A stretch of 61,866 bases of DNA, filler included, from Candidatus Woesearchaeota archaeon (GTDB lineage Archaea > Nanobdellota > Nanobdellia > Woesearchaeales > GCA-2687795): NCBI GenBank assembly GCA_030753365.1. It is 5 parts of 5 records of this genome, joined end to end, with 100 filler letters (N's around TTAATTAATTAA, not from the genome) between each part and the next. Parts side by side here need not be neighbours in the genome. Positions count along the whole stretch, not along the records: positions 1 to 13,198 come from JASMCJ010000044.1; positions 13,299 to 29,665 come from JASMCJ010000046.1; 3 more parts are not named here. The stretch is one strand, 5' to 3'. The position numbers are program-made. Shown here piece after piece: positions 12,001 through 18,000 of the stretch. Every line of letters begins with the position of its first letter. Positions within the stretch are counted from its first letter, which is position 1.

Positions 12001-15000
12001 TGCTTATGACGGCACTGTTACTTATTATGTTATGGACATTTCCGATCCTTTAATGCTTACTTATGCAAAGATCTTCCCTAAACAGTTCAAACGGTTTGAG
12101 GACATGCCCGCTGACCTGAAAGAGCATATTAGATATCCTAAGGATTTGTTTAAGGTACAGTCTCATATCTATAGCACTTATCACATGGATGATATTAAAG
12201 TGTTCTATAACAAGGAAGATGCCTGGCAGATCCCTAACGAAGTTTACGGCGTTGGCCAGCAGGTTATGGTAGAGCCTTACCATATTATAATGAAACTTCC
12301 TGATGAGGCTAAGGAAGAGTTTGTTTTGATGACTAGTTTTAGTCCTATCAAGAAGGACAACATGGTAGCATGGATGGCTGCCCGCTCTGATGGACAGGAT
12401 TATGGGAAATTAATATTGTATAAGTTCCCTAAGGATAAATTGATTTATGGTCCTTTACAGATTGAAGCAAAGATTGACCAGGACTCTGAGATTTCAAAAC
12501 AGCTTACTTTATGGAGTCAGCAGGGTTCAAGGGTTACAAGAGGTAATTTGCTTGTTATTCCTATTGAAGATAGTATTATTTATATCGAGCCTTTATATAT
12601 CCAGGCAGAGACTGGGCAGCTCCCTGAGCTGAAAAGGGTTTTAGTTTCTGATGGTATTAGTGTTGTTATGGAAGAGAATCTTGCTGAAGCTTTGGAAGTT
12701 CTGTTCGGAAAAAGCAAGAGAGTTGTTGAAGAGAAAGGAGAACTGATAGAGGAAGGAACTTTAGAAGTTAAAACAACTTCTGAACTTATTGAAGAAGCCC
12801 AAAATTATTATGATCTTATTGAGAATTCTATGAAAGAAGGCGACTGGTCTGGCATTGGAAACAATCTTGGCAAGTTAGGGAATGTTCTAGAAAGCTTGAG
12901 TTAGATTTATTATCTTAAAAACATAACCAGAAATATATAAAGATTAATCTAAATATTCCTCTCCTGGAATATATTCATCACTAGCAGGCAAACAAACAAC
13001 AACATCAAATTTCCTTGCTATTTCTTTAGTTAACCTTTCTGCTTCAATACAAGAAGGGTCTCTAAGATGATAATTTACATTTAATTCTGAAACAACTTTA
13101 AAACCTGAATTCTCCCAATCAGAAACTTCCTCTTCTTCTATTGTATGAGGAAAATAGAATAGATGAGGCCAATCGTCTTTTTTATTATAGTAAAATATNN
13201 NNNNNNNNNNNNNNNNNNNNNNNNNNNNNNNNNNNNNNNNNNTTAATTAATTAANNNNNNNNNNNNNNNNNNNNNNNNNNNNNNNNNNNNNNNNNNNNAA
13301 AAAAAAGAAAAAAAAAGAGGATGAACTTAAACTTAGACTTTTTACCCTGGCTAAATGATTTAGTTGGGAACGTATACATTCAAGCACTATTAGTTTTTAT
13401 ATTATTCTTGTTTCTGGCTTCTGTAATGTTGGTTGTTTATAGAAAATATGTTAAAAAAATAGCTTCAAAAACTAAAACAAAAGTGGATGATATTATACTT
13501 GAGAAATCAGAAATGCCTTTGTTTTATATGCTGATTCTTTTTGGAATAAAGCTGGCTATAAAGCCTTTAAATATAACTAACTCATCTATCCAAAAAGGAA
13601 TTAACACTGTTGTGGTAATTATAATGGGTTATATAGTTGTCAGCTTTGTGAACACTGTAATCAAACTATGGGGGAAAAAGATTGCGGAAAGAACAAAGTC
13701 AACGTTTGATGATGAAGTGCTTCCTCTCATTCAGTCGCTTTCAAAAATTTTTGTGGGAATAATAGTATTGCTTATTGTGCTTGACATATGGAGCATAAAG
13801 ATAGGGCCGTTGCTTGCAAGCTTGGGTATAGCTGGCTTAGCAGTTGCATTTGCAATGCAGACTTCTCTTGGAAACATATTTGGGAGCATATCTCTTATAC
13901 TTGACAAGACGTTTAAAGTAAAAGATGTAATCCAGCTTGAATCAGGAGAAATAGGACAGATTGTTGGAATAGGGTTAAGGAGCACTAAGATAAAGACTTT
14001 TGATAATGAATTATTGATTGTTCCTAATGGAATGCTGGCAACAAGCAAGATAAAGAATTTGGCAAAGCCAAACAATGTGTTAAGATTAGTTCTGCCTATA
14101 GGAGTAGCTTATGGCTCGGATATAGATAAGGTTAAGAAAACTCTTCTTACTACGCTTAAGAATGTTAAAGGAGTGGTGCATGGAAATGAGAAGCGCAAAC
14201 CCTTGGTAAGGTTCAATAAGATGAATGATTTCTCATTAGACTTTGATTTAGTGTTTTTTATAGAAGATTACAAGGAAAGATTTGACATTTCAGACGAGAT
14301 TCTTACAAAGGCTTATAATGAGCTGAATAAGAAGAAGATAGACATACCATTCCCTACAAGAACGGTTTATTTGAAGAAGTGAGCTTGTACTGATTAGCTG
14401 ATTTTTGATAGATTATAGATATTTTTATAAAACCTCTAGGATTCTTGTTGATATGAGCGAGGAGAAGACTAGAGTTGTCTGGAGAGATCCTGAGAGATAT
14501 TTCAAAGAGATTGGTCATGACTTTGATCTTGAATTCCAGAATAATGGAAAGTTTATGAGATATATGAAAGGTAGAGCTGTTAAACCTTTTCTGATGGGAG
14601 ATTTGTTTAAAAAATTAAGTCTAGTAGAGTTTGATGAAACGAAAGACAGGCAAGTCTATCATAGTGATAAAAGCTGCTTATTCTCAAGGTTTGAAGTAGA
14701 AGGAATTACTAGGTATAAGGAGATTGTAAAAGATCCTGATATCAGTGTTGCTTGGTGTCCTAGGCATAGGTTCACTGGGGATTATATAGGCATGCAACCA
14801 TTGCTTGTTGATTGTGTTTATAAGTCGTTGGATGAATCTTCTGAAAGTATGGAAGGTGAGAAACAGTCTCATAAATATTTGATGATTCCAGGAGGGGATA
14901 ATCTTTTTGTCCGAGGTTTTAGTACAATATTAAAGAAGTTTGGAACATTTATGTTTCTTAGGAAAGATAAGGCATTTTCTCTTAAAAAAAAGGATATAGA

Positions 15001-18000
15001 AGAAATAAATCAAAATATGCCTCTTGTTAAATATTTTATAGATAAGGATGGGAAAAGAAGGATGATTGATTCTGAACATGAAGAAAATGTTGGTGAGTTA
15101 GAGACATTGCTTGCAGATAAGAAAGTAGAGCAGTTTTTGGATGAAAGATATTATTTGACTAATGTATTGCCTTCATATCTTGAACAGCAAATGTTTGAAG
15201 GTGTAAATGGGAGAACATATGATATTATGCCTTTTGTAGAATATAAGATTGGCGTTAATGGGAAGGTGAGCACAGGCAGATCAAAAACAGGAGAATTAGG
15301 AGACATGAGCCCGCTTTTTTTTAAACATCTTTATAGGATTTTGCAGAGGCATAAGGGTGAAAAAGAGCTGTTAATTGTTCCTAGTAATATGTCTGGGTCT
15401 AAATATCCTGATGCCTTAAATTTTGTTGGCAAACCATCCTTTTTATTGGGGTTAAGCAGAAGCCTGAAATATATTATGGATTCAAATTATTTTTGGATTA
15501 GGTATCCGCATTATGCAGAAAAACATCCTGAAGCAAAGATTGAGGCAACTGTAAAATTTGGTGAACCAATCTCACTTTCAGAGTTTAATAAAAAGTCTGT
15601 TGTGGACGATCTTCCTGGAATACTTAGGAAAAGAATTGGGCTTCTTGAGACACCTTATCCTGTAGCAGTCCTTTGTAAGTTAATGGAGGGTGAAAGTGAA
15701 GTTCTTTATTCTGTATTGAATGAAAGGTTTAAGCCTCTTCTTGAATATTATCAGAAGCTTGGTATAGATGTTTCTAAGATTACTAGTCCAAATGGGAATC
15801 CTTTGGATGCAGAAGATTTGACAGAAAGAGTTGCTCTTACTCTTAATAGTAATCCTAGGATATATTCTAAAGGTGGGAACTATTCTAAAAAGATTATTGA
15901 GCCAAGACAGTTTTCTGTGAGAAGCAATAACAGTGATTTGCAAGTATGGTATGCAAATATGTTGAAACATCTTGAGATTTAGATTAAAGAAATATTAATA
16001 TAAGACATAAGTTTATCTAAATCTTCTAAGAAAATGATATCGTTAAGCATGCTTCTTAAGCATTATAAAAGAAAAGAGATTCAGGAAGAAATAGTCAGGA
16101 ATGCGAACGGCAGGGAAGTTGCAGTCAAGTTCGGAGAAAAAGGATTTGGGAAAAGGCCGGATGTTCTACAGTATCCTAATGATGTATTAAATCTTGCGAA
16201 GAAAGGCGCTACATCTTTTCATGTCTCAGAAGAGCATTGGGGAAATGTTCTGCAGTTAAGCACAGGGATGAAAAAAAGCGAGCAGGATGAGATGAGAACA
16301 GGGTTTGACCTTGTATTAGATATAGACTGCCATAACCTTGAGTACAGCAAAATAGCAGGAGACTTAGTTGTCAAGGCGTTGAAGCATAATGGGATTAATT
16401 CTTTATCATGCAAATTCTCAGGCAATAAAGGGCTGCATATTGCAGTGCCTTTCAAAGCATTTCCTAAATTGATAAATAATATTGAGACAAAAAAACTTTT
16501 CCCTGAACTGCCAAGAAGAATAACAATGTATCTAAAGGCAATGATAAAAGAGCCTTTGAGCAGGGCAATACTTGAATATGAAAATAATGATTTCTCTAGA
16601 ATTGTTGAAAATGTTGGCAAGAAAGCTGAAGAGATTATGATAAAAGAGAAAAATGAATCAGGAAGCATGGTTAATAAGCTTAACACAGAATCTTTCCTTG
16701 ACATAGACACTGTACTTATATCGAGCAGGCATCTTTACAGAAGTGTTTACTCGTTCAATGAAAAATCAGGGTTAATTTCTGTGCCTGTAAAGCATGATGA
16801 AATTTTATCGTTTGACAAAGAAATGGCAAAGCCTGAGAATGTAAAATTAGGTGAATTAAAATTTCTTGATGAAAATAGAGTAATAGAAGAGGATGCAAGA
16901 AGACTTGTTATGCAGGCATATGAGTTTGTTGAGAAAGAAGGTGAAAAGCCTGAAGGAAATAATAAAAACTATGGGAAGCCCATGGAAATCAAGCTGGATG
17001 CCCCCATGCCTGAAAAGTTCTTTCCTCCGTGTATCAATTTTGTGTTAAACAATGGGCTGGATGATGGGAAAAAAAGAGTATTGTTTATACTCGTTAACTT
17101 TCTTACAAGCCTTGGCTGGGATCATGAAAAAGTGGAGAAGAGGTTGGGTGAATGGAACAAAAAGAATCCTGAAGCAATAAGGGAAACTTACATGGTTGGA
17201 CAGATAAGGTATCATAAGTATAAGAAGAAGAATATACTTCCACCAAACTGTAGCAATAAAGATTATTATCATGACATTGGAATATGCAAGCCTGATAATC
17301 TATGCAATAAGATAAAGAATCCTGTTAATTATTCATTGAGGAAGGTTAAGTTCTTGAAGAATAAGAAAAATTAGTTTTTGTGTTTGCTCTTCTTCCTCTT
17401 ATACCTGCCTCTTTTCTCAACAGTTTCTAACCTTTCTATCACAGCATCATAATGTTCTGAGATTGACTTGTAACCTTCTAACACGTATTTGAAACATTCC
17501 TCCCAAATCTTATAATGCTTTGATTCCAAGGCCTGTTTCAATAAGTGCAAATCAACAGCTTTATCTTCCACTTTAAGTGAGGAGACGCTAAGCCCAAAAT
17601 CAATAAAATAAACTCTTTCTTTGTCGTCATCCTTGAGAATCATGTTTGATGTTGTTAAATCTCCATGGATAATCTCATTGTTATGCATGATGGCAATGTT
17701 TTTTCCTATCTCATTGCAGAGGAACTTGTAATCACTCTTTTCAAGGATGTTTCTTATGCTGTCTCCTTTGAGGAATTCTATCTCTAATAGCTCTTTGTCA
17801 TCTGACCTGATTAGTTTAGGGCAAGGAAATCCTAAAATGTTGAGTTTTTTAATGACTTTTGCCTCTTTCTTTGTTCTTCTCTTTCTTAGTTTTTCATCTA
17901 TTTCACTAATTCTATAAGATTTCTTTATTCTGTCCTTTATTATTACATTGTTATCTAAGAAAAGCTTTGCTTCAGCTCCCTGGGCAATAAGTTTTTTCAT

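What a model noticed while it worked through the whole genome (the two positions that open the first line are those of the whole stretch)
14453..15982. PlsB/GPAT-type glycerol-3-phosphate acyltransferase completes a bacterial ester-lipid route in an archaeon
The unannotated 509-aa g588, on a contig with primase, Bud32 and DNA ligase, folds like human GPAT1 and keeps the HxxxxD motif; the genome also has GpsA, a PlsC-type acyltransferase, a CDP-lipid synthase, PgsA and an ACP, while G1P dehydrogenase, GGGP synthase and UbiA were not found. The cell acylates glycerol-3-phosphate and builds bacterial-type ester phospholipids, likely from scavenged fatty acids. New: a PlsB-type enzyme in an archaeon and a full acyl-G3P route without the ether route.
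Evidence so far: Calls 157, 162: Foldseek best hit GPAT1 (8e4y, E 4.6e-10, 467 columns, TM 0.44), next three plant/algal GPATs. Call 144: H105 and D110 invariant in 14 homologues. Calls 138, 139: PlsC family over cut-off on C72, GpsA E 1e-40, CarS. Calls 136, 137, 164: PcrB, UbiA, Fe-ADH_2 not found in G000. PMC6431249 (passages, call 141) found no archaeal PlsB or PlsX.
(Added by a program. Inside this text positions count along the whole contig: they may not be those of the stretch shown here. "Call 12" and the like, gene names such as g00115 and contig names such as C1 are that model's own, and its searches are not shown. The text may have been shortened before it was handed on; [...] marks where a part breaks off. 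The agent that wrote the report below was given it as the finding of a first reader that could run no searches.)

Follow-up and report, generated by a model that had tools for sequence, protein, structure and literature searches.

The report
Bacterial-type lipid starter enzyme in archaea
A tiny archaeon carries a short relative of the bacterial enzyme that attaches the first fatty acid to glycerol-3-phosphate, a gene type reported as absent from archaea but found here in about one in seven genomes of its order; it likely starts bacterial-type ester membrane lipids, using activated fatty acids that would have to come from a host because no gene for making them was found.

Summary
The 509-aa ORF is real, native to an archaeal contig, and belongs to the PlsB/GPAT clade: all four acyltransferase motifs and the GPAT C-terminal motif map onto E. 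coli PlsB, and the family profile matches solved PlsB over nearly its whole length (E 1e-37; PlsC only 6e-8). It is not rare: short PlsB-like genes occur in 62 of 401 genomes of the order, 11 of them directly beside GpsA, though none in the query's own subclade. G000 has GpsA, a PlsC-like protein, CarS, PgsA and an orphan ACP, and no ether-route gene was found; but that lack is order-wide (GGGP synthase in 1 of 73). The route is not 'complete': no fatty acid synthase, long-chain ligase, PlsX, DegV or ACP-priming enzyme was found, and CarS is the archaeal type reported to prefer isoprenoid substrates. Bacterial lipid genes in Woesearchaeota are already in print, and this scan noted GpsA/PlsC blocks before on other DNA; a PlsB-clade enzyme in archaea was not found in print. 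No enzyme activity is shown.

The parts
14453..15982 (+). Short stand-alone PlsB/GPAT-clade acyltransferase, 509 aa (an in-frame TTG at 14405 would give 525 aa; 7 of 9 cluster members are 509 aa)
14765..14782 (+). Motif I HxxxxD (H105, D110) = E. coli PlsB H306, D311; catalytic dyad
   Evidence: role of HX4D from PMC13691511 passages
14942..14962 (+). Motif II (G164-R170); R170 = PlsB R354
   Evidence: phosphate-binding role recalled
15233..15292 (+). Motif III split by a 10-residue insertion: F261-V262-E263 ... G275-R276-S277-x-x-G280 = PlsB F383-V384-E385 ... G387-R388-S389-x-x-G392; PlsB G386 faces T274
15374..15382 (+). Motif IV proline P310 = PlsB P421
15947..15973 (+). C-terminal motif W499-L507 matching PlsB Y608-L616 inside the GPAT_C region; the protein ends here, lacking the last ~190 residues of PlsB
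13321..14382 (+). MscS channel, upstream neighbour (context only)
16034..17374 (+). Single-chain archaeal primase (small-subunit domain plus PriX-like part), downstream neighbour; marks the contig as archaeal
17371..18000 (-). Bud32/RIO-type kinase (context; Bud32 label recalled)
26671..27045 (-). Ribosomal protein S8e on the same contig (archaeal marker)

Best explanation
The gene encodes a short PlsB/GPAT-clade acyltransferase that likely transfers an acyl chain from a thioester donor onto glycerol-3-phosphate, the first step of bacterial-type ester phospholipid synthesis. Shown: clade membership, intact motifs, archaeal contig, spread in the order, GpsA next door in relatives. Inferred: GpsA (C11) makes G3P from DHAP; this enzyme makes lyso-phosphatidic acid; the PlsC-like protein (C72) adds the second chain; CarS (C71), retargeted, activates it; PgsA (C45) and a PAP2 phosphatase (C28) give phosphatidylglycerol. 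Weakest link: the donor. G000 shows no way to build or activate long chains, so ready acyl-ACP or acyl-CoA would have to be drawn from a host cell (or the activating gene lies in the unassembled few percent).
For: Profile of 46 family rows outside the query's clade scores P0001 167 bits, E. coli PlsB 152 bits, best of 200 shuffles 5.8. Family profile vs PDB: PlsB 9vuq E 1.3e-37 over positions 5-379 of 386, GPAT1 3.5e-28, PlsC 6e-8. 42 of 58 members hit the NCBIfam PlsB model, 8 of 58 GPAT_C. Atlas model: TM 0.62 to a GPAT_C family, 0.60 to a GpsA-GPAT fusion cluster. GpsA directly adjacent in 11 of 62 archaeal loci (8 of 58 without unpublished genomes; six families; about 0.1 expected by a rough count; Pfam-confirmed); ketoacyl synthase adjacent in 3, AcpS 1, CarS 1, PlsC 1. 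CarS lies 2-4 kb from PlsC-type genes in G009, G038, G050. GGGP synthase full-length in 1 of 73 and the G1P dehydrogenase model over cut-off in 0 of 42 genomes. Codon use is native.
Against: No acyl-donor route in G000: only AMP-binding enzyme is acetate-CoA ligase; no ketoacyl synthase (62), ACPS (74), PlsY (75), DegV (95), PlsX/FabH/FabD/FabG (88), thiolase (76); the ACP is an orphan between fibrillarin and ThiI. None of the 9 loci of the query's own subclade (G000, G074, 7 Spirochaetales) showed a lipid gene beside it (Spirochaetales neighbours only partly annotated, 10 proteins). Genome-wide co-occurrence is weak: GpsA in 13 of 30 positive vs 12 of 43 other genomes, CarS 17 vs 21, and only 5 of 30 have GpsA, a second acyltransferase and CarS together. 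Characterised CarS prefers DGGGP over phosphatidic acid and did not complement a cdsA mutant (PMC9385802 passages). P0001 has an insertion in motif III and is on a long branch. The sister genome G027 (75% complete) showed no copy.
Confidence: 0.55

Rival explanations
1. Remodelling enzyme: it moves acyl chains between host-derived phospholipids or re-acylates scavenged lysolipids, with no de novo G3P acylation.
For: No acyl-thioester source in G000; G000 has a DAG-kinase-like protein, a PLD-family protein and a PAP2 phosphatase, a salvage-type kit; 17 of 30 positive genomes showed no GpsA (this search missed at least one divergent GpsA, G021). [quoted passage not shown]
Against: The family groups with PlsB/GPAT, not PlsC; GpsA adjacency in 11 of 62 loci points to a glycerol-phosphate acceptor.
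Confidence: 0.17
2. DHAP acyltransferase: it acylates dihydroxyacetone phosphate (as GNPAT, same clade, recalled); the divergent GpsA then reduces acyl-DHAP to lyso-phosphatidic acid, or the product feeds alkyl-ether lipids.
For: G000's GpsA is below every NCBIfam cut-off and several GpsA neighbours are long and divergent (402-456 aa); PMC11868695 reports Agps, Ger and ElbD hits in archaeal MAGs (passages).
Against: No GNPAT sequence was in the comparison, so nothing tested favours it; canonical GpsA is adjacent in G100 and G092; PlsB residues R354, E385, S389 are kept.
Confidence: 0.12
3. The membrane is still built from archaeal ether lipids (host DGGGP finished by CarS and PgsA, or ether genes missing from the bin); the acyltransferase has a side job such as storage lipid or lipid-anchor synthesis.
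For: CarS over cut-off and no CdsA; MEP operon and polyprenyl synthase present; UbiA-family proteins in 17 of 42 genomes including the sister; bin is in 78 contigs.
Against: GGGP synthase and G1P dehydrogenase are missing nearly order-wide in high-quality genomes; CarS clusters with acyltransferases in four genomes.
Confidence: 0.12
4. Decaying or inactive relic of a transferred gene.
For: Long branch, insertions, patchy presence, no donor route.
Against: Full-length open frame in 7 of 9 cluster members; motif residues kept; native codon use.
Confidence: 0.04

Closest known systems
Bacterial PlsB (E. coli NP_418465; solved 9vuq), NCBIfam TIGR03703/NF003441
   Same: Motifs I-IV and the C-terminal motif align residue for residue; family profile covers PlsB about 240-620.
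   Different: 509 aa against 807; lacks the N-terminal ~240 and last ~190 residues; 64 of 336 aligned positions identical; insertions after motif I, after motif II and inside motif III; far below the curated cut-offs; in an archaeon.
Human GPAT1 (8e4y) and the eukaryotic GPAT/GNPAT clade
   Same: Profile match E 3.5e-28 including the late C-terminal motif.
   Different: No strongly hydrophobic segment in P0001 (best 19-residue mean 1.09); much shorter.
Unnamed short PF01553/GPAT_C clusters of Spirochaetota, Acidobacteriota, Aminicenantota, Gemmatimonadota
   Same: Nearest by features and predicted structure; closest named records are 7 of 7 Spirochaetales at 28-31% identity.
   Different: Uncharacterised; in the quick tree the Spirochaetales copies nest among archaeal ones. 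The short form is thus not unique to archaea.
Bacterial lipid genes already reported in archaea (PlsC, PlsY, GpsA; fatty-acid genes in Woesearchaeota)
   Same: Same pathway idea: PMC6431249, PMC8204110, PMC10936187, PMC11868695 (passages).
   Different: PMC6431249 states no archaeal PlsB or PlsX was found; the other passages seen name no PlsB-type enzyme.

Membership tests
PlsB/GPAT/DHAPAT clade of glycerolipid acyltransferases | Catalytic HxxxxD (motif I) | tested here: met
   H105/D110 = PlsB H306/D311; 54 of 62 archaeal members keep it
PlsB/GPAT/DHAPAT clade of glycerolipid acyltransferases | Motifs II-IV (Arg; FxEGxRS; Pro) | tested here: met
   R170, E263, R276, S277, P310 map to R354, E385, R388, S389, P421; G386 not kept because of an insertion
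PlsB/GPAT/DHAPAT clade of glycerolipid acyltransferases | GPAT_C region after the catalytic domain (absent from PlsC) | tested here: met
   Profile aligns to PlsB through the C-terminal motif; 8 of 58 members hit PF19277; Atlas aligned part named GPAT_C. Only the first half of the region is present.
PlsB/GPAT/DHAPAT clade of glycerolipid acyltransferases | GPAT fold | tested here: inconclusive
   Atlas model (pLDDT 0.65) TM 0.60-0.62 to predicted GPAT models; no comparison with solved structures could be run
Canonical PlsB (TIGR03703, NF003441) | Score over the curated cut-off; full ~800-aa architecture with PlsB_N | tested here: not met
   P0001 has no NCBIfam hit at E 0.01; 509 aa, no N-terminal domain. 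It works like PlsB but is not filed as one.
Canonical PlsB (TIGR03703, NF003441) | sn-1 acylation of G3P with acyl-ACP or acyl-CoA | not testable with these tools
   Needs an assay; GpsA adjacency in relatives is indirect
PlsC (TIGR00530) | Short PF01553 protein closer to PlsC than to PlsB | tested here: not met
   hhalign: PlsB probability 93.9, PlsC-type protein 0.2; PDB E 1e-37 vs 6e-8
Complete bacterial ester-phospholipid route in G000 | G3P source, two acyltransferases, CDP activation, head-group synthase | tested here: met
   activation is by CarS, whose use of acyl substrate is untested
Complete bacterial ester-phospholipid route in G000 | Source of acyl thioester (FAS II, FadD/Aas, FakAB) and ACP priming | tested here: not met
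   Not found; bin 94.5% complete
Archaeal ether route in G000 | G1P dehydrogenase, GGGP synthase, DGGGP synthase | tested here: not met
   Not found; controls rang in each search

The most novel reading that the evidence does not exclude
A sizeable share of Woesearchaeota have crossed the lipid divide: they build their membrane from fatty-acyl G3P phospholipids with an old, archaea-diversified short PlsB family, GpsA and a CarS retargeted to phosphatidic acid, taking acyl donors from bacterial hosts, and have passed one branch of the enzyme on to Spirochaetales. They would be the first archaea with a bacterial-type membrane and a natural model for the membrane switch at eukaryote origin.
Probability: 0.3. 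Interest if true: 0.9.

Novelty: new variant of a known kind. Interest (0 to 1): 0.63.

Why it matters
PlsB was one of two bacterial phospholipid enzymes reported missing from archaea (PMC6431249). Finding a short PlsB-clade family in about 15% of genomes of one archaeal order, often beside GpsA and in genomes without the ether route, supplies the missing first acylation step for the standing proposal that these archaea use bacterial-type lipids. It is directly testable: one small soluble-looking protein, a standard E. coli plsB complementation and a standard assay. It also bears on whether some DPANN archaea live on bacteria.

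Full report
Observation. The window is a join of contigs; places 13299-29665 are contig C46 of G000, a 897-kb bin rated 94.5% complete and 1.5% contaminated. The ORF at 14453-15982 gives 509 aa with no Pfam, NCBIfam or PDB match on its own. C46 carries a single-chain primase, a RIO/Bud32-type kinase, a Toprim primase, ATP-dependent ligase, FtsZ and ribosomal S8e. The gene's GC3 (21st percentile) and codon adaptation (86th) are ordinary among 526 genes.

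Family. Fifteen close homologues align with H105, D110, R170, R276 invariant; their profile hits only GPAT1 and PlsB in the PDB and matches E. coli PlsB by hhalign (probability 93.9) but not a PlsC-type protein (0.2). A wider alignment of 58 proteins (built) matches solved PlsB at E 1.3e-37 over 5-379 of 386 positions, GPAT1 at 3.5e-28 and PlsC at 6e-8; 42 of 58 members hit the NCBIfam PlsB model and 8 of 58 GPAT_C. With the 12 rows of the query's clade left out, the profile still scores P0001 at 167 bits and E. coli PlsB at 152, against 5.8 for the best of 200 shuffles (the rows were first gathered with the query's clade, so the P0001 score leans upward, the PlsB score does not). Residue map: H306/H105, D311/D110, R354/R170, E385/E263, R388/R276, S389/S277, P421/P310, and the C-terminal motif; G386 is lost to a 10-residue insertion. 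The Atlas model gives TM 0.70 to a short PF01553 cluster, 0.62 to a GPAT_C family and 0.60 to a GpsA-GPAT fusion cluster. The protein is PlsB's core without its N-terminal domain and last ~190 residues.

Spread. The narrow profile finds 13 of 401 genomes of the order, the wide one 83 of 401 at E 1e-5. After dropping 21 (listed under Tried and rejected), 62 of 401 hold a short PlsB-like gene, 54 with HxxxxD; four of the 62 are unpublished genomes (G121, G370, G303, G112), and the count without them is 58. Class and phylum samples give 7 of 251 and 17 of 201 at E 1e-12, with four genomes outside the order. Other archaeal phyla were not searched. The closest named records are Spirochaetales (7 of 7), and short forms exist in other bacteria. 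In a quick, unrooted 71-row tree the query lies in a 21-row clade (SH-aLRT 100) with two archaeal-labelled rows and ten unlabelled ones; the nine rows I called Spirochaetales (six named, three by closeness) form one branch inside it. Transfer direction is a lead only.

Neighbourhoods. GpsA is the adjacent gene in 11 of 62 loci (8 of 58 published; six families; all 8 Pfam-confirmed), where a rough count expects 0.1. G154 has ketoacyl synthase-GpsA-acyltransferase in a row; G144 has ACP synthase, desaturase, DAG kinase and a ligase fusion around it; G123 has serine decarboxylase, serine synthase and CarS 1 kb away. Against this: no lipid neighbour was seen in the query's own subclade, and genome-wide co-occurrence in my hand-picked set is weak (GpsA 13 of 30 vs 12 of 43; CarS 17 vs 21; ACP domain 9 vs 7). 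Six genomes without the gene have PlsC-PlsC-GpsA blocks instead.

The route in G000. Present: GpsA on the ribosomal-protein contig C11 (Pfam domains over cut-off, NCBIfam below), a PlsC-like protein with HxxxxD on C72, CarS (149.8 over 148) with no CdsA, PgsA (143 over 109), an ACP with the DSL site just below cut-offs, PAP2, PLD and DAG-kinase-like proteins, polyprenyl synthase and MEP operon. Not found: PcrB, UbiA, Fe-ADH_2, G1P dehydrogenase model (the label of NF002022 as G1P dehydrogenase is recalled). The lack is order-wide: full-length PcrB in 1 of 73, G1P dehydrogenase over cut-off in 0 of 42; incomplete lipid pathways in these archaea are known (PMC7414124, passages). Also not found: any source of acyl thioester. 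The only AMP-binding enzyme is acetate-CoA ligase; no ketoacyl synthase, ACP synthase, PlsY, DegV, PlsX, FabH, FabD, FabG or thiolase. A longer independent contig shows the ACP between fibrillarin and ThiI with no ligase. CarS enzymes studied so far prefer DGGGP, and one failed to complement cdsA (PMC9385802, passages), though CarS lies near acyltransferase genes in G009, G038, G050 and G123.

Mechanism. Most likely (0.55) His105, held by Asp110, activates the sn-1 hydroxyl of G3P, which attacks an acyl thioester (HX4D chemistry from PMC13691511, passages), and GpsA, the PlsC-like protein, CarS, PgsA and PAP2 finish phosphatidylglycerol. All chemistry is inferred. The donor would be host acyl-ACP or acyl-CoA, or come from an unassembled gene. 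Rivals: remodelling of host lipids (0.17), DHAP acylation (0.12), ether membrane with a side role (0.12), relic (0.04).

Literature. PMC6431249 (passages) found PlsC, PlsY and GpsA in archaea but no PlsB or PlsX. PMC8204110, PMC10936187, PMC11868695 and PMC13159169 (passages) report GpsA, fatty-acid, cyclopropane, MSL and Ger genes in Woesearchaeota and already propose bacterial-like lipids. PMC13400652 (passages) shows E. coli PlsB is G3P-specific. PMC7852524, PMC7242380 and PMC13014828 (passages) add nothing on archaeal PlsB. Searches listed no paper reporting an archaeal PlsB; the library lacks most subscription papers and I read no supplements. Two earlier notes of this scan describe GpsA/PlsC blocks in other Woesearchaeota; a look-up by sequence found nothing.

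Verdict. A new variant of a known kind: a short PlsB-clade family that overturns a published absence and fills the first-acylation gap, inside an idea already in print. Not canonical PlsB, activity untested, route in this genome lacking a donor. Interest 0.63.

Noticed in passing
L101:6798-9902 (G144): 1035-aa fusion of AMP-binding ligase, ACP domain and HMG-CoA-reductase domain, in a cluster with a HAD, DAG kinase, desaturase, ACP synthase and a short PlsB-like gene. It could reduce acyl chains to alcohols for alkyl-ether lipids; the likeness to myxobacterial ElbD is recalled, not tested.
   Followed up: no
L082-L086; G019:C3, G001:C14, G056:C62: 810-880-aa proteins with a C-terminal PF01553 domain; three carry an ACP domain just before it, and one matched G000's ligase, so they look like ligase-ACP-acyltransferase fusions.
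   Followed up: partly
L102:4801-7082 (G009); also G015, G023, G038, G049, G050: PlsC-PlsC-GpsA blocks in genomes lacking the PlsB-like gene; in G009 beside ETF, acyl-CoA dehydrogenase, SDR and thiolase genes.
   Followed up: partly
L060, L065, L071, L072, L078, L080: Six members have HxxxWE in place of HxxxxD: a subgroup with Glu or no acid at the catalytic Asp.
   Followed up: no
L131:884-2923 (G224:C53): Actinobacterial-type PlsB at the start of a contig that then continues with archaeal-looking genes; likely chimeric assembly or recent transfer.
   Followed up: partly
window 27079-27782: Ribulose-phosphate 3-epimerase split into two overlapping frames (profile 1-128 and 130-196): frameshift or assembly error.
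   Followed up: no
L138:2434-9259 (G000:C74): Complete bacterial MEP operon of seven genes.
   Followed up: yes
   Followed up: no
G223:C71:4883-5587: The only full-length PcrB/GGGP synthase among 73 genomes, in a genome that also has the PlsB-like gene beside GpsA: a candidate for mixed lipids or contamination (5%).
   Followed up: no
window 18365-20227: SurA/PpiC isomerase fused to a C-terminal thioredoxin-like domain behind a long acidic N-terminus.
   Followed up: no
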